Shown one piece after another: positions 11,604 to 56,378 of a DNA stretch of 64,000 nt. Under the pieces are notes generated by a model. It was not told the DNA's origin, did no database searches, and saw nothing but the letters and a program-made list of their open reading frames with translations. This DNA is from Escherichia coli (GTDB taxonomy: Bacteria; Pseudomonadota; Gammaproteobacteria; Enterobacterales; Enterobacteriaceae), in NCBI RefSeq assembly GCF_030013205.1, contig NZ_CP122648.1; one strand, 5' to 3'. The translations under genes and the position numbers were made by a program. Numbering within the stretch: position 1 is the first letter of the stretch; the number at the start of each line of letters is the position of its first letter.

Positions 11604-12580
11604 GAGTGGGTTCCGTACTCTTTGTTTAGTGTGATTGTGACAGGCGTTTCACCGCCGTCTGTAAAGCGTATGCCCCGACAGCTGTATGCATAGCGATAAA
11701 TTCCAGCAGGCCGGGACGCCGGTCTATTTTGCCCCAGAGTGTCAATGTTAGACTTGACGGACATTGTGCAGCGATCTGCTGCTATCCTCCGGCAAAAAAC
11801 AAAATATACCTTCGTTGCGCCAATGTCACCTTTTCCGCAGCGCAAAAACTGCGTCAGGGAGGACGAGGTCGCACATTATAACGATTTCGTAGCAATTGGC
11901 AGCTAAATACTGGTCTTATCAGGGAAGATAATCAACAGCTAACATGTAAATAACCTTCAACACCGTGTAATTTGCAACAAGCCGCACAATTCACGAAATT
12001 AGCGCCATCATCGACGGAACTTCTTATAACGTAAGGTGAAAAGCTGTAAAGCCAGCCCTGCGAAGATGAGGGGCTGCAATGAGATAATCTTCACAGACCA
12101 CAAATAATGTAGGGATGCCAGGATCGCGACAAGATAGACGACATTACGCAGCGGTTGCTGAGGATTACGCAATTTTCACTTCATCGTCTGGATAGATGTG
12201 AATGCTAAAGCACGCAAAATCAACCGTCTGACAATGCTCAGCATCAAATACGTTCGAGTGGTTAATTTGTAGGCAAATAAAATCAGATTATTCACCCCAT
12301 GGTACCAGAAATCAGTAACAGGTTAAGCGTAGCGTCGCCCAGGCAAAGCACCATAAACCTAACAGGCGACGGAGGCGTATCAATAATGGCTGTTTAGTGG
12401 AGTAACAGTGCGCATCAATTTATGGTCAGTCGAAATCATGACTTTCCAGTTTGGATGATGTTGTACAACTTCATGACCAAGATGTTCGACGAAAGCTGTC
12501 CGGCTAACCGCTTTTCCCGTTAACCGATTGAATAATGGTTTCAAAATGAGTTCCCTCTCTTATTAATCCTTGCTAAATGG

Positions 12581-41234: not shown

Positions 41235-42602
41235 TTAATAAAATAGCGTGATAGTGGCAATCATATTCACCACGAAACCGACTGCCATGGGGATCGCTGT
41301 CCGCTTCACTACCGCAAAAGGCGAAACGCCTGCAATTCCTGACGTAACGACCACCACCGCAGTAATCGGCGAAACAGCGCGCGCTAGCGTCGTGGCAAAA
41401 TGCATCGGCATAATCATTACAACCGCTGGTACATGTAGTCCGGCTGCGATATTCGGAATAAGACTGGCAAATGACATAAACGGCGCATTGCCTGAGCCCA
41501 TCACAATGGCACAAATGGCAATGACCAGCGCCATAATAATCATCACGCCAATACCGCCCAGACCAGAATGCTCCGCCCCCCTGATAACCGCATCGACAGT
41601 GCCAATCGTCGTTAAGCCTTTCGCAAATATTTCACCCGCGACCACCAGCGTTACCACGTTGGCAAACTGCGTACCCATGCCATCAAAAAACGCCTGCACA
41701 TCGTCCATTGTTTCGCGCAAGTTATGCTTGCGGAAGAACTCAACAAACATCGTCACCGTCAAACTCAGTAACATCACCACCACCAGATGCAGTTCTGACT
41801 GCATCAGCCCGACGTGGGCAAGGAACAGCGAGCCGAGCATCAGGATTAACGGCATCACCGGTAAAATGGCGTAATAGAGCGGCGGGACATTATCGAGAGC
41901 TTTTTGCTCTGCCTGTTCGTGATTGATATTTTTATCTTTTTTGTCGAAAGCGCGTTGCACGAAAAAGTGGGAGATCGCCACCGAGATAATGACGCAAGAG
42001 GCGACCGGAAGCTGGTAGTGGAAGAAGTAAGTGGCAATTTTCATTCCTGCGACCTGGGCAGCAAAAATGGAGTTCGTTTCCAGAATCCCCCACTCAATGG
42101 ACATGGTGGTTGCGATAACCGCCACCGCAGAGAGACTACTTACTCCCAGACTCACCAGCGTCGGAAATAAGGTGACCATCAGCAACATACCCAGACCGGA
42201 GGCGCTGGTAATAAACTGCGCCATGATTTGGCCGATGACGTAAGTTGCCGACAGAATAATATACGGCGAGCGAATGAGTTTTAACGGGCGGCTTAACAAG
42301 CTCACCATCGCGCGACTTGCCCCTATGCGCTCCATATAGCGGGCATAACCGCCCACTGCCATAATCGACAGCCCCAATCCGGCAATGCGGTTGGACAGCA
42401 TGCGCAGGATTTCATTATAAATATCGACGATCAAGTAGCCGCTGCTTTTGGCGGGATCGAGCACACCACCGAACCCTAACCAGACACCGCACATCATCAG
42501 GAAGATACCTGCGGCAGCCAGCACCACCTGAGGTTTGTAGTTTTTCAGGATCAAATAGCCCATCGTAATTAATACGATGACAGATATAATTATGCCGAAC
42601 AT
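41235..42602 (-). CDS. dcuD: DcuC-family anaerobic C4-dicarboxylate transporter homolog DcuD (YhcL)
   Basis: ORF 41235..42620 trimmed to [25 protein letters not shown]... (455 aa); polytopic membrane protein at the expected position next to nanR. Confidence 0.85.
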
Positions 42603-42981
42603 TGTTGAACTCCGTGTCAAAAGAAAACGGTCAATCCCATAAACGGCAGATTGAAAACAATGATGTTATATTTTTTGCAAGGCTATTTATGGTGCGGATG
42701 TCGTGTTTTTAATTGTAGGTGAGGTGATTTTTCATTAAAAAATATGCGCTTATGATTATTTTGTAAGAACACATTTATAATATTCATAATGCTCGTGAAT
42801 AGTCTTATAAATAATTCAATCGGGATGTTTTTATCTGCGTTACATTAATTTTTCGCAATAGTTAATTATTCCGTTAATTATGGTAATGATGAGGCACAAA
42901 GAGAAAACCCTGCCATTTTCCCCTACTTTCAATCCTGTGATAGGATGTCACTGATGATGTTAATCACACTGACCTTACAGA

Positions 42982-47124: not shown

Positions 47125-48457
<1,333 letters not shown>

Positions 48458-48476
48458 AACTTAGTTCGTTTTAAAG

Positions 48477-48501
48477 ATTCTGCAGACACTGTCTGCAGAA
48501 T
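48477..48501. repeat. 25-bp perfect palindrome ATTCTGCAGACA-c-TGTCTGCAGAAT in the yhcH/yhcG convergent gap
   Basis: Read directly from the sequence; 12-bp arms around a single central base; related to the palindromes at 49266-49327. Confidence 0.8.
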
Positions 48502-48516
48502 TCGAAACCGCTGAAA

Positions 48517-49629
48517 TTAACGGCGTCTATAGCCTTCCTCTAGCACCGCCTGTGTTCGAACGAGTTCATCCGCGAGTCGTTTTTCATCAGGTAGTTGCAT
48601 CTTATATTCGCTCGCCAGAACGGTGTTAGGCAAACCAGCCAGTGCATAATACGCTTCGCCGGCTCCTTTCTCTGCACAGAGAACCAGACCGATGGGCGGA
48701 TTTTCATCCGGTAGTGTCCAGTGCTCTTTGGCGTAGTTGAGATACATATTCATCTGTCCGGCATCGCTATAGCTGAATTTGCCCACTTTTAGATCGACGA
48801 TTAGCAGGCAGCGTAAACGGCGGTGGAAAAACAGCAGATCGACACGAAACCAGTTGTCATCAATGCGTAACCTTCGCTGTCGACCAACAAAGGCAAAATC
48901 ATCCCCAAGTTCCAGCATGAAATCCATCAGGTGGTTGATCAGCGCCTCCTCAAAATCGGATTCTGAGTATTCATCTTTCAATTCCAGAAATTCGAGCACA
49001 AAGGGATCGCGTATCGCCTGCTGCGGAAGAATATGCGTCTCGGTAGGAGCGTGTTGTTGCAGCATGGCTGATTTGTCATGTGACAGTAGTGTCCGCTCAT
49101 AAAACTGGGTCGCAATTTGTCGTTCGAGCTGACGAGCAGACCAGCCACAGCGGAGTGTCTCTTTCTCATAAAAGCTGCGAGCATCAGCTTTTTTAACAGA
49201 AAGCAAACGGACGTAAGTGGACCAGGGCAGGGGGAAGGATTTGGCGAGTTGCGCTAAATGGCAAGATTCTCCAGACACAGTCTGGAGAATTGTGGGGGTG
49301 AATTGTGCAGACAGTGTCTGCACAATTTCAATTCTTTGAAAACAAATATAAAAATTCTTAAACTGCCATAAATTCCTGGTGGAAAATCCACGCTTATACC
49401 TTAGACTTAAATCCTTTGATAGTCGCTTGATTAGCTGCGCACCATACGCAGCCCTGGCCTCGCCACCTTGTTCAAATTCGACAATTCGTCGGCCAATTTC
49501 CCAGTACGTCGCGGTCATTAACGCGTTAACGCTACGTACCGTTTCCGTTCGGGCGCTATCGACCAGATGAATAATGCCGTCGTGGATTTGCTGGTAGCCT
49601 GCTGTGGTTCCTTCTGAGAGCGATTCCAT
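48517..49629 (-). CDS. yhcG: DUF1016 (YhcG-family, predicted PD-(D/E)xK nuclease-fold) protein
   Basis: 370-aa ORF MESLSEGTTAGYQQIHDGIIHLVDSARTETVRSVNALMTATYWEIGRRIVEFEQ...; size and position correspond to YhcG. Confidence 0.85.
   Translation of the reverse strand: MESLSEGTTAGYQQIHDGIIHLVDSARTETVRSVNALMTATYWEIGRRIVEFEQGGEARAAYGAQLIKRLSKDLSLRYKRGFSTRNLWQFKNFYICFQRIEIVQTLSAQFTPTILQTVSGESCHLAQLAKSFPLPWSTYVRLLSVKKADARSFYEKETLRCGWSARQLERQIATQFYERTLLSHDKSAMLQQHAPTETHILPQQAIRDPFVLEFLELKDEYSESDFEEALINHLMDFMLELGDDFAFVGRQRRLRIDDNWFRVDLLFFHRRLRCLLIVDLKVGKFSYSDAGQMNMYLNYAKEHWTLPDENPPIGLVLCAEKGAGEAYYALAGLPNTVLASEYKMQLPDEKRLADELVRTQAVLEEGYRRR
49266..49327. repeat. two further palindromes of the same family inside the 5' third of yhcG
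   Basis: ATTCTCCAGAC-aca-GTCTGGAGAAT (49266-49290) and AATTGTGCAGACA-g-TGTCTGCACAATT (49301-49327); both share the CAGACA..TGTCTG core with 48477-48501. Confidence 0.8.
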
Positions 49630-49812
49630 TATCTGTCCCTTAATATGGCGCAGTGTTGAATAATGGAATCAGCTATACGCCGGGCATCTGCCGGTAACAA
49701 TCCAGATGTGCGTATTACATTGGTTTTCTTCAGATTATGCGAGGCGCTTTCCAGAACGAAAGGAGAATTTCAGCGCCGACTCTTTTCTGAGGAGGCGGCG
49801 CTGGGACAGAGC

Positions 49813-51243
<1,431 letters not shown>

Positions 51244-54200
51244 TTACTGCGCCTGCACGCGCAACTCTGCTGCGCTACGACTACGGTGACCCAGCAGTGC
51301 TTTTACATCACTGGACTTCGGTTTAACCAGCGCAAATTTAGTGGCGAAGGTTGACCAGTTCGCCAGAATCTCTTCACCGCGCTGAGAACCGGTATGCTGA
51401 ACATGCTCGGTGATAAGACCGCGCAGATGCTCTTCATGGATCGCCAGATCGTCAACGCTTAAGACCTCGACCAGTTCCGGGTTAACGCGTTTGCGGAAAT
51501 CGCCGCTTTCATCGAGAACGTAAGCGAAGCCGCCGGTCATGCCCGCGCCGAAGTTAACGCCGGTTTTACCCAGAATACAGACAATACCGCCCGTCATATA
51601 TTCACAGCCGTTGTCGCCAATGCCTTCTACCACGGTGATAGCACCGGAGTTACGCACGCCGAAACGTTCACCCGCGCGGCCTGCGGCATACAGACGACCT
51701 CCGGTCGCGCCATACAGGCAGGTGTTGCCGATAATGCTTGCTTCATGGCTGCGGAAGGCTGAGCCAACCGGAGGACGAATGGCGATTAAGCCGCCCGCCA
51801 TGCCTTTACCGACATAGTCGTTGGCATCACCGGTCAGGTACAGTTCCACGCCGCCCGCGTTCCACACACCGAAGCTCTGGCCTGCGGTGCCGTTGAAGTA
51901 CGCTTTGATCGGATCGGCTGCCAGACCCTGATCGCCGTGCGTCTGGGCGATATAGCCTGAAAGCGACGCGCCGACAGAACGGTCGGTGTTGCGAATATCG
52001 AACCAGAAGGTTTTGCTCTGACGCTCATCGACAAACGGTTTTGCCTGTTGCAGCAACTGTGCGTTCAGCAGGCCGTTATCAAACGGCGGGTTGTTTTCGG
52101 TACAGTAGAGCGCCTTACCTGGATGCGGCTCAGCGGTCTCCAGCAGTTTCGACAGCGCCAGTTTCTGCTGTTTGGCGGTGAAACCGTCCAGCTCTTTCAG
52201 CAGGTCGGTGCGACCAATCAGATCCACCAGACGCGTTACCCCCAGCTGTGCCATCAGCTCGCGGGTTTCACGGGCGATAAACTCAAAGTAATTAGTCACC
52301 TTGAACGGCAGGCCGTGATAGTGATTCTTACGCAGTTTGTCATCCTGAGTTGCTACACCCGTCGCGCAGTTGTTCAGGTGGCAAATACGCAGATATTTAC
52401 AGCCGAGCGCCACCATCGGACCGGTGCCGAAGCCGAAGCTTTCTGCGCCGAGAATCGCCGCTTTGATGATATCGACACCCGTTTTCAGGCCGCCATCGAC
52501 CTGCAAACGAATTTTATGACGTAAACCGTTGGCAACCAGCGCCTGTTGGGTTTCCACCAGGCCGAGTTCCCACGGACAGCCTGCGTATTTCACCGATGAA
52601 AGCGGACTTGCGCCGGTGCCGCCATCATAGCCTGCGATGGTGATTAAATCGGCATAAGCTTTCGCCACGCCAGTCGCGATGGTGCCTACGCCCGGTTCGG
52701 AAACCAGCTTCACGGAGATCATCGCTTTCGGGTTAACCTGCTTGAGGTCGAAAATAAGCTGCGCTAAGTCCTCGATAGAGTAGATATCATGGTGCGGCGG
52801 CGGGGAGATCAGCGTCACTCCGGGCACCGAATAGCGCAGTTTGGCGATGTAAGGCGTGACTTTATCGCCCGGTAACTGACCGCCTTCGCCCGGCTTCGCG
52901 CCCTGGGCGACTTTAATCTGAATGACGTCGGCATTGACCAGATACGCCGGAGTAACCCCAAAGCGACCGGAAGCCACCTGCTTGATGCGCGACACTTTGT
53001 TGGTGCCGTAGCGTGCCGGATCTTCGCCGCCTTCACCGGAGTTAGAGTTGCCGCCGATGCTGTTCATCGCTTCAGCCAGCGCCTCGTGGGCTTCCGGGCT
53101 TAACGCGCCGATAGACATCGCAGCGGTATCGAAGCGTTTAAACAGTTCGCTTGCCGGTTCAACATCAGCAATGTTGACCGCGTTTTCACCCGGCGTAATT
53201 GCCAGCAGATCGCGCAGCGTGGTTGCCGGACGCTCATTAACCAGCTTCGCGTATTCCTGATAGTCGCTGTACTCGCCGCTTTGTACCGCCTGTTGCAGCG
53301 TGCGCACCACGTCCGGGTTGTAGGCGTGGTATTCGCCGCCGTGCACATATTTCAGCAGGCCGCCCTGGCTGATGGGCTTACGCGCCAGCCAGGCACGTTT
53401 CGACAGATTCAGCAGATCCTGCTGGAAGTCTTCAAAGCTTGCCCCGCCAATGCGGCTGACCGCGCCCTGGAAGCACAGGCCCACTACATCATCGTGTAGA
53501 CCGACCGCTTCAAACAGTTTCGAGCAGCGGTAAGAGGCGATGGTGGAGATGCCCATTTTGGACATGATTTTGTACAAGCCTTTGTTGATGCCGTTACGGT
53601 AGTTGAGCATCACGGTACGATAATCTTTGGCAATCGCGTGGGTGTCTACCAGGCGGCCCAGCGTTTCATAGGCAAGGTACGGATAAATAGCCGTCGCACC
53701 GAAGCCCAGCAACACGGCGAAATGGTGCGGATCGCGGGCGCTGGCGGTTTCGACGATGATGTTGGCATCGCAACGCAAGCTTTGATCGACCAGACGGGTC
53801 TGGATCGCGCCAACCGCCATCGGGGCTGGAACCGGCAGGCGATCTTTAGCGATATTCCTGTCGGAGAGCACCAGCAGCACAGTGCCGCTACGTACCATTT
53901 TTTCAGCTTTGTCGCACAGCTCTTTGACCGTCGCTTCGAGCGTGGTTTTGGTGACGTCAAAGGTGATATCCAGTGTATCTGCGCGGTAGTGCTCCTCTTT
54001 CATCGTCGTGAGCTGTTTGAAATCGGAGTAGAGCAGAATCGGCGATTTAAAACTTAAACGGTGCGCCTGGCCCTCTGCTTCACAGAAGACGTTCATTTCA
54101 CGCCCTATGCTGGTGGCGAGCGACATAACATGCGCTTCACGCAGTGGGTCGATTGGCGGGTTGGTGACCTGGGCAAATTGCTGGCGGAAGTAATCGTAAA

Positions 54201-55797
54201 TAATGCGCGGCTGACTGGAGAGCACGGCGAATGGGGTGTCGTCGCCCATCGAACCGACCGCTTCCTGACCGTTTTCGCCCAGTACGCGAATTACGGAGTC
54301 CAGCTCTTCCGCGCTGTAGTTAAACTGTTTCTGGTAGCTGGCAAGTGTGTCGTCGTCCAGTTCGCGGCTACCCACTTCTTCATCGGGCAGATCTTCAAAC
54401 GGTACCAGTCGGCGGACGTTTTTCTCCATCCACTCTTTATATGGATGGCGGCTTTTCAGATCGTCATCAGTTTCTGCCGAGTGCAGAATGCGCCCACTGC
54501 GAGTGTCGATCACCATCAGTTCGCCTGGCCCGACGCGGCCTTTTTCGACCACTTCGTCAGGCTGATAATCCCAGATACCGACTTCAGAGGCGCAGGTGAT
54601 GAGCTTATCTTTGGTGATGACGTAGCGCGCCGGACGCAGACCGTTACGGTCGAGGTTACAGGCGGCAAAACGACCATCGGACATCACGATGCCCGCCGGG
54701 CCATCCCACGGCTCCATATGCATGGAGTTAAAGTCAAAGAAGGCACGCAGTTCCGGGTCCATATCCGGGTTGTTCTGCCAGGCGGGTGGTACTAACAGAC
54801 GCATGGCGCGGATGATATCCATCCCGCCTGCCAGCAGCAGTTCCAGCATGTTATCCATGGAACTGGAGTCAGAGCCGGTTTCGTTGACGAACGGCGCGGC
54901 GTCGTGCAGGTCAGGGATCAGCGGCGTCTGGAATTTATAGGTACGCGCACGCGCCCATTGGCGGTTGCCGGTGATGGTGTTGATTTCACCGTTATGCGCC
55001 AGGTAGCGGAACGGCTGCGCCAGCGGCCAGCGCGGTACGGTGTTAGTGGAGAAGCGCTGGTGGAACAGGCAAATGGCCGATTCCAGACGCAGGTCCGCAA
55101 GATCCAGGTAGAAGCGCGGTAGATCCGCCGGCATACACAGACCTTTATAGATGTTCACCAGATTCGACAGGCTACAGACGTAGAAGTCTTTGTCGGCTTC
55201 GAGACGCTTTTCAATGCGGCGGCGGGCGATAAACAGACGGCGCTCCATATCGCGCGGACGCCAGCCTGCCGGGGCGTTCACAAAAATTTGCTCAATGCGT
55301 GGCAGAGAGGAGAGGGCGATTTCACCCAGCACGCCTTCGTTGGTGGGGACATCACGCCAGCCCACAATCGATAAGGTTTCGCGTTGCAGCTCTTCTTCAA
55401 CGATGCGGCGTGCGGCAGCGGCGAGTTCAGGATCTTTATTCAGGAAGAGCATCCCGACGGCGTAGTTTTTCGCTAAACGCCAGCCGCGCTCCTGCGCAAC
55501 GATGCGAAAAAAGCGATCCGGTTTTTGTAACAGCAAGCCGCAACCGTCACCGGTTTTACCATCGGCGAGAATCGCGCCACGGTGCTGCATGCGGGCCAGT
55601 GCGTGTATTGCAGTACGCACTACCTTGTGGCTAGGTTCGCCTTCTATGTGGGCGATCAGGCCGAAACCACAGTTATCCCTCTCAAGGGATTTATCGTACA
55701 ACATATCGTGAACCTCCCCCAGGCTCTGCGGGAACCCCACTTCCGAACCGCTGCGCACGGGCACAGAAAGAGCGTGGCGACGGGGGTTGCGTGTCAT
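51244..55797 (-). CDS. gltB: glutamate synthase (NADPH) large subunit
   Basis: ORF 51244..55812 trimmed to [53 protein letters not shown]... (1517 aa, includes propeptide). Confidence 0.95.
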
Positions 55798-56378
55798 ACG
55801 CGCGCCTCGCATTCGCCCCCTTGTTGTCCTTTTCGCATCGGTTAATACGGTGAAGAGGGGATCTCAATTACTGCATAAATATGATGAGCAGGCTGCTCAT
55901 CCAGAAAGCTTCCAGCGGATTTCCAACTTATCGGGAAAGCTGATACAGGTCAAATGGCAAGCTTATTGGTACAGAAATGTGCTTTAGCGCAAAATTCTTT
56001 ATTAATTTGCTGAAATTAAAGTGGATTTTCTATTTAAGGCTAAAAGGGGCGTCGTTAGAGAAACAGTCAATTCCTGACTGTCATAAAGGCGTGTTAACCC
56101 TTATCCTGCCTTGAACTGACGAGAAAGCCAGCATTTTATACTGCTTTAATTGGTAATGGCATTTTATGCTACTGTTTTTGCCTAAAATCCATAAGGAGAT
56201 AAAAAAATCTGACACAAGATAAGCAAAAATGATTTATGTGATCATGCATGAAATTTCGGTAATTTTGATTGATTATGCAGTTGATAAAAGCAGGCCGGGA
56301 CGATTGATCCAGGTCATCGCCGAATTGAGCTAAAAATGGCAGGCTTTGGCCTCTTTTCAAGGCGCGGTCTATCAGATT

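What the first reader, a model, noticed from the sequence alone, without database searches (positions are those of the whole stretch)
49630..49812. gltD abuts yhcG: gltF and the yhcADEF fimbrial-like cluster appear to be absent
In the K-12 map as I recall it, gltD is followed by gltF and the yhcA-yhcD-yhcE-yhcF chaperone-usher genes before yhcG. Here only 183 bp separate the gltD stop from the yhcG start. This strain therefore lacks about 5 kb of K-12 sequence, or K-12 gained it. The junction interval contains a GC-rich inverted repeat (CAGCGCCG...CGGCGCTG) that may be the gltD terminator.
Basis: partly seen in the sequence, partly recalled or inferred. Interest (0 to 1): 0.35.

Follow-up and report, generated by a model that had tools for sequence, protein, structure and literature searches.

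The report
Common gltD–yhcG junction without Yhc fimbriae
This strain carries the common, evolutionarily old form of a variable spot next to the glutamate synthase genes; the fimbrial gene cluster that K-12 has there is an optional cassette found in about a quarter of E. coli, so its absence is ordinary.

Summary
On the minus strand gltD (49813-51231) is followed after 183 bp (49630-49812) by yhcG (48517-49629). No gltF or yhcADEF homologue exists in the 64-kb window.

Against K-12, homology stops 2 nt after the gltD stop and resumes 127 nt upstream of yhcG. The window has 54 private bases there (49757-49810, holding the inverted repeat at 49771-49803). MG1655 has 7,080 bp, about 5.9 kb without IS5.

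Among 5,426 complete E. coli genomes:
- 3,137 have this short junction;
- 1,293 have the K-12 cluster, 1,288 of them at >=99% identity;
- 947 have gltD directly against nanQ, without yhcG.

The gltD-yhcG adjacency is also found in E. albertii, a cryptic Escherichia lineage, Pseudocitrobacter, Citrobacter koseri and Salmonella, so the window shows the old state. The K-12 cluster is a low-GC, locus-specific cassette. Strongly diverged versions sit in the same slot in E. marmotae and some E. albertii.

The sporadic, phylogroup-A-restricted distribution of Yhc fimbriae is already published. The terminator reading of the inverted repeat is plausible but not canonical, because there is no U-tract.

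Seen in passing: yhcG-family genes carry a conserved, covarying perfect palindrome inside the coding sequence.

The parts
49813..51231 (-). gltD, glutamate synthase small subunit; the stop codon TAA is at 49813-49815
   Evidence: ORF; TIGR01318 1e-270; 99.6% aa identity to K-12 GltD
49630..49812 (-). 183-bp gltD-yhcG intergenic spacer: the short ('type B') form of the gltD-nanQ variable slot
   Evidence: the same junction is present in 3,137 of 5,426 complete E. coli genomes
49757..49810 (-). 54 bases with no counterpart in K-12; K-12 has 7,080 bp (hairpin HP1, gltF, yhcA, yhcD, yhcE::IS5, yhcF) in their place
   Evidence: BLAST breakpoints: window 49811 = K-12 3360618 and window 49756 = K-12 3367699. 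The same 54 bases follow gltD in O157, E. albertii and a cryptic Escherichia lineage
49771..49803 (-). GC-rich inverted repeat (8-bp stem CAGCGCCG/CGGCGCUG plus 3 more pairs), 9 nt after the gltD stop; probable 3'-end hairpin of the gltBD transcript, with no U-tract
   Evidence: The 76-nt stretch folds at -23.2 kcal/mol, z = -2.2. The terminator scan does not call it. No Rfam match. A hairpin sits at this position with different stem sequences in Pseudocitrobacter, C. koseri and Salmonella
49630..49756 (-). yhcG 5' region (presumed promoter and leader), homologous in all yhcG-bearing forms; 73% identical to the K-12 allele
   Evidence: includes the conserved block CTGGAAAGCGCCTCGCAT (49737-49754)
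48517..49629 (-). yhcG, DUF1016_N + YhcG_C PD-(D/E)XK nuclease, 370-aa allele; matches the PADLOC candidate defence family PDC-S02
   Evidence: Pfam; PADLOC 2e-133; 90% aa identity to K-12 YhcG, with divergence concentrated in nt 240-420
49265..49327 (-). two tandem palindromic units inside yhcG (49301-49327 and 49265-49291), each encoding I-x-Q-T-L/V-S-x-E/Q-x
48476..48502 (.). HP2: a copy of the same palindrome 14 nt after the yhcG stop, between the convergent yhcG and nanQ genes (bidirectional terminator-like hairpin)
   Evidence: z = -3.2 and -5.9 on the two strands
47993..48457 (+). nanQ (yhcH), last gene of the nan operon; conserved right-hand border of the variable slot
   Evidence: NF040884 2e-70

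Best explanation
The window shows the common and evolutionarily old arrangement of a small variable slot between the convergent gltBD and nan operons: gltD, a 3' hairpin, the yhcG 5' region, yhcG, a palindromic hairpin, then nanQ. Nothing was recently deleted from this strain. The gltF-yhcADEF genes of K-12 form a 5.9-kb low-GC beta-class chaperone-usher cassette (7.1 kb with IS5) that occupies the same slot in about 24% of E. coli. That cassette arrived in, or was kept only by, the K-12-like part of phylogroup A as a locus-specific allele exchanged by homologous recombination through the conserved flanks. It was not inserted by a site-specific element. A third form (B2 strains) lacks yhcG as well. 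The GC-rich inverted repeat 9 nt after the gltD stop most likely marks the 3' end of the gltBD mRNA, as a weak or non-canonical terminator or a 3'-stabilising stem. The arrangement, the breakpoints, the census and the cross-species synteny are shown here. The direction (gain in phylogroup A), the recombination mechanism and the terminator role are inferred.
For: Breakpoints: 54 bp in the window against 7,080 bp in K-12, starting 2 nt after the gltD stop and ending 127 nt upstream of yhcG. Census of 5,426 complete genomes: 3,137 short junction, 1,293 K-12 cluster (1,288 at >=99% identity, none on plasmids), 947 gltD-nanQ; the sum of 5,377 is consistent with mutually exclusive forms. The same 54-bp segment and yhcG 5' region follow gltD in the E. 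albertii type strain and in a cryptic Escherichia lineage whose gltD is 92% identical. gltD-(181-209 bp)-yhcG synteny holds in Pseudocitrobacter faecalis, C. koseri and Salmonella enterica. The cassette has 43% GC, against 57% for gltBD and 55% for nan. Published surveys found the yhc locus only in phylogroup A (PMC5216030) and called it sporadic (PMC3559732). Real recent deletions look different: IS1 sits between gltD and a 5'-truncated yhcG in three strains of K-12-type background. K-12 and E. coli B, both phylogroup A by my own knowledge, differ by 0.0-0.8% per kb in gltBD up to the junction. They differ by 3.3% and 1.8% in the two 1-kb bins covering nanQ and nanK, then 0.1% beyond, which is the footprint of a recombination tract ending at the slot. 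A hairpin follows the gltD stop in every lineage examined, canonical with a T-run in several genera.
Against: The change is a replacement, so neither form derives from the other by one simple event. The gltD-proximal hairpin of K-12 is shared with the yhcG-less B2 form and not with the window's form. Cassettes with the same gene order sit in the same slot in E. marmotae (YhcD 67% aa identity) and some E. albertii (82%). Inverted ones lie next to gltD in Citrobacter and Enterobacter, so the cassette could be an ancient resident that most lineages lost. I did not map the three forms on a genome tree, and flank divergence gave no directional signal. The inverted repeat has no U-tract, its fold z-score is only -2.2, and it shows no base-pair covariation within Escherichia.
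Confidence: 0.75

Rival explanations
1. The beta-fimbrial cassette is the ancient resident of the slot, present in the common ancestor of Escherichia or even of Escherichia, Citrobacter and Enterobacter. On this reading the short gltD-yhcG junction is an old deletion derivative that later spread, so the window's lineage did lose the cluster, but long before E. coli diversified.
For: Same-slot cassettes occur in E. marmotae and E. albertii, and inverted next to gltD in Citrobacter, Enterobacter asburiae and E. cloacae. Their divergence increases with taxonomic distance: YhcD is 82% identical in E. albertii, 67% in E. marmotae, 56% in Citrobacter and 41-49% in Enterobacter. E. marmotae shares with K-12 the hairpin after gltD, the yhcF-yhcG spacer (87.5% over 56 nt) and the K-12-type yhcG 5' region. 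Wurpel et al. raised this possibility (PMC3559732).
Against: The short junction is itself shared across genera as far as Salmonella, so it is at least as old. The 54 private bases cannot be produced by a deletion. Cassette genes are far more diverged than the flanks: yhcD is 66-77% nt identical against 92-94% for gltD. That fits imported alleles as well as it fits fast evolution. The low GC points to a foreign origin.
Confidence: 0.2
2. A recent deletion in this particular strain or clone removed gltF-yhcF.
For: Deletions do occur at this slot: IS1-mediated ones and palindrome-mediated ones.
Against: There is no IS or scar. The junction is shared by 58% of complete genomes and by other species. 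The window differs from K-12 by 1-3.6% per kb over most of the shared flanks, so it is not a K-12-like background.
Confidence: 0.03
3. The inverted repeat is not a gltBD terminator but part of yhcG regulation, for example a protein-binding site or leader structure, or a neutral remnant.
For: There is no U-tract and the terminator scan does not call it. It is followed in all genera by a similar A/T-rich CT motif (AAATTCTCCT) and lies on the same strand upstream of yhcG.
Against: It starts 9 nt after the gltD stop, and a hairpin at this position is the only feature common to all forms and genera, including those without yhcG.
Confidence: 0.25

Closest known systems
Yhc (beta-class) chaperone-usher fimbrial locus gltF-yhcADEF of E. 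coli K-12, described as sporadic and phylogroup-A-restricted (Wurpel et al. 2013, PMC3559732; Del Canto et al. 2017, PMC5216030)
   Same: This is the same presence/absence polymorphism. K-12 carries the cluster between gltD and yhcG, and most other E. coli do not.
   Different: The window is a non-carrier. Added here are base-level breakpoints, a census of 5,426 genomes, a third form without yhcG, and same-slot diverged cassettes in E. marmotae and E. albertii.
Variable segments between conserved core genes of the E. coli chromosome that are exchanged by homologous recombination of the flanks (general knowledge of E. coli pan-genome structure)
   Same: The borders are conserved (gltD, nanQ), alternative contents occupy one slot, there is no integrase or tRNA, and a recombination-tract footprint is seen between K-12 and E. 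coli B.
   Different: The slot is very small (0.07 to 8.4 kb). One of its contents (yhcG) is conserved in place across genera.
Rho-independent (intrinsic) terminators
   Same: A GC-rich stem immediately downstream of a stop codon, at the end of an operon.
   Different: No U-tract, a long 9-nt loop with an interrupted stem, and no call from the consensus scan.
YhcG / DUF1016 PD-(D/E)XK nucleases (Pfam PF17761 + PF06250; PADLOC candidate PDC-S02)
   Same: The neighbouring gene is a full-length member. The family is common on plasmids, with 520 records. A homologue lies inside a type I restriction-modification operon in locus L102, and the literature reports the same association.
   Different: Here it is a chromosomal gene that is syntenic across genera. 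Its function has not been tested.

Membership tests
Yhc beta-class chaperone-usher fimbrial operon | Usher (PapC_N/Usher/PapC_C), PapD-like chaperone and DUF1120 subunits (GltF, YhcF) encoded between gltD and yhcG | tested here: not met
   No tblastn or blastn match of K-12 GltF, YhcA, YhcD or YhcF in the window. Only 183 bp lie between gltD and yhcG. The K-12 proteins do carry these domains.
Rho-independent terminator (for the inverted repeat 49771-49803) | Stable GC-rich stem-loop just downstream of the stop codon | tested here: met
   8+3 bp stem starting 9 nt after the stop; the 76-nt stretch folds at -23.2 kcal/mol, z = -2.2.
Rho-independent terminator (for the inverted repeat 49771-49803) | Run of U immediately 3' of the stem | tested here: not met
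   The tail is AAAUUCUCCUUUCG. The consensus scan does not report the site.
Rho-independent terminator (for the inverted repeat 49771-49803) | Conservation of the structure, or termination activity | tested here: inconclusive
   A hairpin sits at the same position with three different stem sequences in four genera, but the sequences cannot be aligned pair by pair. Activity cannot be tested with these tools.
YhcG / DUF1016 PD-(D/E)XK nuclease | DUF1016_N plus the YhcG_C PDDEXK domain | tested here: met
   PF17761 6e-43 and PF06250 3e-56.
PADLOC PDC-S02 candidate defence system | Match to the PDC-S02 profile | tested here: met
   PDLC04807, 2e-133.
PADLOC PDC-S02 candidate defence system | Protection against phage | not testable with these tools
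   PDC systems are candidates only. Titles and abstracts of the papers returned for the term did not indicate a functional test, and I did not read them in full.
Classical genomic island (for the K-12 cassette) | Deviant base composition | tested here: met
   43% GC against 55-57% in the flanks.
Classical genomic island (for the K-12 cassette) | Integrase, tRNA target and flanking direct repeats | tested here: not met
   No integrase or tRNA gene is annotated in the K-12 region. The only repeats are the two 27-bp palindromes (after gltD and after yhcG), which flank cassette plus yhcG together.

The most novel reading that the evidence does not exclude
The 25-31-bp perfect palindrome inside yhcG may be a functional nucleic-acid element of the whole YhcG/DUF1016 nuclease family. 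Window copies lie at 49301-49327 and 49265-49291, with an extragenic copy at 48476-48502. Candidate roles are a symmetric DNA site or cruciform recognised by the nuclease or a partner, or a built-in recombination and contingency element. On this reading its copies, inside and outside the gene, set the breakpoints that generate the alternative gltD-nanQ forms. It occurs at the same codon position with different, complementary arms in Salmonella, C. koseri, a Burkholderia pseudogene (61% aa identity), an Acidisarcina plasmid gene (58%) and four of five viral-contig homologues (37-50%). It is multiplied in tandem (36-39-bp period) in Escherichia and Pseudocitrobacter.
Probability: 0.35. Interest if true: 0.6.

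Novelty: already known. Interest (0 to 1): 0.15.

Why it matters
For annotation and comparative work, gltF is not part of a universal gltBDF operon. It belongs to an optional fimbrial cassette absent from about three quarters of E. coli, and K-12 is the atypical reference at this locus. The slot is a compact example of three nested forms maintained across species. The junction itself raises no new biological question. The palindrome embedded in yhcG-family genes, if functional, would give a first experimental handle on an uncharacterised and widespread candidate defence nuclease.

Tried and rejected
- Remnants of gltF or yhc genes in the spacer or elsewhere in the window: none.
- Rfam at permissive threshold on 48300-50100: no family.
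- NCBIfam gave no family for YhcG or for the 105-aa plus-strand ORF at 49663-49980. I treat that ORF as spurious.
- PDB sequence search for YhcG: no hit.
- Promoter scan found no sigma-70-like site for yhcG in the spacer.
- Mismatch counts per 200 nt in gltB/gltD and nanK/nanQ among the window, K-12, ST131, O157, E. albertii and the cryptic lineage gave no directional signal.
- A first palindrome pattern with a 4-nt centre was wrong and found nothing. The correct 3-nt centre gave three hits.
- A clean insertion with target duplication was considered for the K-12 cassette and rejected. The two flanking palindromes enclose cassette plus yhcG, and the window's form lacks the left one.
- A recent deletion in this strain was rejected on distribution and absence of a scar.

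Full report
**Observation**

On the minus strand the window encodes gltB (51244-55812), gltD (49813-51231) and a 370-aa ORF at 48517-49629. On the plus strand nanR, nanA, nanT, nanE, nanK and nanQ end at 48457.
- gltD matches TIGR01318 (1e-270) and nanQ matches NF040884.
- The 370-aa protein has DUF1016_N plus the YhcG_C PDDEXK domain and is 90% identical to K-12 YhcG.
- The interval 49630-49812 is exactly 183 bp.
- It contains CAGCGCCG (49771-49778) and CGGCGCTG (49796-49803).
- No homologue of GltF, YhcA, YhcD or YhcF is present anywhere in the window.

**Breakpoints**

BLAST against K-12 shows homology up to window 49811 (K-12 3360618, 2 nt past the gltD stop) and again from window 49756 (K-12 3367699, 127-128 nt upstream of the yhcG ATG). 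Between these points the window has 54 bases (49757-49810). K-12 has 7,080 bases, of which about 1.2 kb is IS5. The two segments share no similarity, so this is a replacement and not a clean insertion or deletion.

**How common each form is**

Three searches of 5,426 complete E. coli genomes gave these counts.

| Form | Arrangement | Genomes |
|---|---|---|
| B | short gltD-yhcG junction (this window) | 3,137 |
| A | K-12 cluster present | 1,293 (1,120 with at least 80% of the query in one place) |
| C | gltD and nanQ 67 bp apart, no yhcG (e.g. ST131) | 947 |

- 1,288 of the 1,293 type A carriers are at least 99% identical to K-12, and all copies are chromosomal.
- The counts sum to 5,377, consistent with three mutually exclusive forms.
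- The window's own junction is 100% identical to that of strain CFSAN018748.
- Published surveys already describe the Yhc beta-class chaperone-usher locus as sporadic in E. coli. One found it only in phylogroup A (PMC5216030).
- The other explicitly left open whether it is an ancient remnant or a recent acquisition (PMC3559732).

**Which state is older**

The same 54 bases and the same yhcG 5' region follow gltD in three places:
- O157:H7;
- the E. albertii type strain;
- a genome labelled E. coli whose gltD is only 92% identical to all E. coli sequences, which I take to be a cryptic Escherichia lineage.

gltD-(181-209 bp)-yhcG synteny also holds in Pseudocitrobacter faecalis, Citrobacter koseri and Salmonella enterica. 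In Salmonella a permease/amidohydrolase gene pair lies between yhcG and nanQ. In several other genera gltD abuts nanQ directly. The window's arrangement is therefore old and widespread.

The K-12 cassette has 43% GC, against 57% for gltBD and 55% for the nan genes.

Genuinely recent losses of the cassette look different. In three strains an IS1 lies between the K-12-type sequence after gltD and a 5'-truncated yhcG.

K-12 and E. coli B (both phylogroup A, from my own knowledge) were compared across the region:
- They differ by 0.0-0.8% per kb in gltBD right up to the junction.
- They differ by 3.3% and 1.8% in the two 1-kb bins covering nanQ and nanK.
- Beyond that they differ by 0.1%.

This is the footprint of a recombination tract whose left end is at the slot.

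**Complications**

- The cassette is not unique to E. coli. YhcD has an 82%-identical relative in some E. albertii, a 67% relative in E. marmotae, and 56% and lower relatives in Citrobacter, Kluyvera and Klebsiella.
- The E. albertii and E. marmotae clusters lie in the same slot and in the same order. The Citrobacter cluster, and the Enterobacter asburiae and E. cloacae clusters, are inverted next to gltD.
- E. albertii is itself polymorphic. Two strains with 99.5% identical gltD carry either the cassette or the short junction.
- Cassette genes are far more diverged between species (62-85% nt) than gltD (92-94%).
- K-12 also shares its gltD-proximal hairpin with the yhcG-less B2 form, not with the window's form.

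I therefore regard the slot as holding an old, trans-specific polymorphism. For E. coli I favour import, or retention, of the cassette in the K-12-like part of phylogroup A through recombination in the flanks (confidence 0.75 for the overall picture). The rival is that the cassette is an ancient resident lost long ago (0.2). A recent deletion in this strain is excluded for practical purposes.

**The inverted repeat**

- On the gltD-sense RNA the repeat forms an 8+3-bp stem. The 76-nt stretch folds at -23.2 kcal/mol, z = -2.2, and 4 of 200 shuffles fold as well.
- It starts 9 nt after the stop codon, but it is followed by AAAUUCUCCUUUCG and not a U-run.
- The consensus terminator scan does not report it, and Rfam has nothing there.
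- A hairpin sits at the same place in Pseudocitrobacter (a longer stem of related sequence) and in C. koseri and Salmonella (GGCYCCCC...GGGGAGCC).
- Every other form and genus examined also has some hairpin right after gltD. Several are canonical with a T-run.

A role at the 3' end of the gltBD transcript is the best guess, but it remains an inference.

**Seen in passing: a palindrome in yhcG**

Divergence between the window and K-12 yhcG alleles is concentrated in nt 240-420. That stretch consists of tandem 36-39-bp units, each a near-perfect palindrome of the form AATTCnnCAGAC-N3-GTCTGnnGAATT. Each unit encodes I-x-Q-T-L/V-S-x-E-x.

Where the motif occurs:
- In the window it occurs three times only: twice in yhcG and once 14 nt after its stop. 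The chance expectation is 0.02.
- In about 1.75 Mb of fetched loci and the window it occurs nowhere else apart from one 5-bp-stem chance hit.

Copy number and extragenic copies:
- Copy number varies from one in Salmonella, Citrobacter and Kluyvera to two to four in Escherichia and Pseudocitrobacter. This gives protein lengths of 349/362/375 and 357/370/382 aa.
- Extragenic copies form the hairpin after gltD in K-12, B2 strains, E. marmotae and a Pseudocitrobacter MAG. They also form the hairpin after yhcF in cassette-bearing E. albertii and the hairpin after yhcG in Escherichia.
- A read-through variant translates the post-stop copy as RILQTLSGES.
- Deletion endpoints fall in these copies. The E. 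albertii type strain has a hybrid of an internal copy and the post-stop copy and has lost about 800 bp of yhcG. E. marmotae has a similar pseudogene.

How far the palindrome extends through the family:
- A perfect palindrome lies at the same codon position in a Burkholderia pseudogene (61% aa identity, 14-bp arms).
- An Acidisarcina plasmid gene has one too (58% identity, 15-bp arms, with the core changed on both sides).
- Four of five viral-contig homologues at 37-50% identity have one, with unrelated arm sequences of 9-12 bp.
- A 40%-identity Iodobacter homologue and a 59%-identity viral one have none of at least 8 bp.
- The background in 1.56 Mb is 0.16 such palindromes per kb for arms of at least 9 bp.

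Covariation over 21 distinct copies:
- 93.7% of cells pair.
- 7 of 12 pairs show changes on both sides.
- No shuffle out of 500 reaches the observed values.
- Only one G-U pair is seen.
- The copies were selected for palindromy, so these figures are biased upward.

The near-exclusive Watson-Crick complementarity suggests selection, or templated correction, at the DNA level more than an RNA fold. That is inference.

YhcG matches the PADLOC candidate defence family PDC-S02 (2e-133). It has homologues on 520 plasmid records and no solved structure by sequence search. My searches for yhcG, DUF1016 and PDC-S02 returned nothing about this palindrome in titles or abstracts.

**Verdict**

The finding is correct and ordinary. 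It rediscovers a published presence/absence polymorphism in which K-12 is the minority state. The window strain carries the ancestral-type junction. Interest is low for the junction. The palindrome in yhcG-family genes is the only item here that may deserve separate follow-up.

Noticed in passing
window 49301-49327, 49265-49291 (inside yhcG) and 48476-48502 (after the yhcG stop): Near-perfect 27-bp palindromes (AATTCnnCAGAC-N3-GTCTGnnGAATT) that encode I-x-Q-T-L/V-S-x-E-x. The same position in yhcG homologues down to 37% identity carries a perfect palindrome with different arms (Salmonella, Burkholderia, Acidisarcina, viral contigs). This indicates selection at the nucleotide level.
   Followed up: partly
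window 49240-49340; proteins P0001-P0091: YhcG is a variable-number tandem-repeat protein: 1-4 copies of a 12-13-aa unit give length series of 349/362/375 and 357/370/382 aa. Shorter variants of 307 and 326 aa have lost sequence starting just after the first repeat unit.
   Followed up: partly
L006 2930-3500 (E. albertii type strain); L095 12856-13290 (E. marmotae): In E. albertii, yhcG is truncated by recombination between an internal palindrome copy and the copy after the stop codon. E. marmotae carries a similarly decayed yhcG downstream of its own yhc-like cassette.
   Followed up: partly
L003 and L005 (B2-type strains), 11936-12002: A third form of the slot: gltD and nanQ are only 67 bp apart, separated by a single palindromic hairpin identical (27 of 27 nt) to the first internal repeat of the O157 yhcG allele. 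These loci also lack dcuD between sspB and nanR. The window has a dcuD-like ORF at 41235-42620.
   Followed up: partly
L014, L015 (Enterobacter asburiae, E. cloacae) and L097 (Citrobacter): A beta-class chaperone-usher cluster (usher 41-56% identical to YhcD) lies directly downstream of gltD, in the opposite orientation to K-12.
   Followed up: partly
L086-L088 (three E. coli strains); L098 19444-20245 (E. coli B): There are independent secondary rearrangements of the slot. In three strains an IS1 lies between the K-12-type sequence after gltD and a 5'-truncated yhcG; gltF-yhcF are absent. In E. coli B a transposase gene follows a 3'-truncated yhcG.
   Followed up: partly
window 49737-49754 (minus strand CTGGAAAGCGCCTCGCAT): A block upstream of yhcG is conserved from Escherichia to Salmonella. 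It has GG-N10-GC spacing reminiscent of sigma-54 promoters, but C. koseri has CG in place of the GG. Its function is unknown.
   Followed up: no
L099 31000-33000 versus L098 (K-12 versus E. coli B): Divergence jumps from 0.8% per kb or less in gltBD to 3.3% and 1.8% in the two 1-kb bins covering nanQ and nanK, then falls to 0.1%. This marks a roughly 2-kb recombination tract on the nan side of the slot between two phylogroup A strains.
   Followed up: partly
window 49663-49980 (+): A 105-aa ORF lies antisense to the spacer and the gltD 3' end. It has no family match and is probably not a gene.
   Followed up: partly
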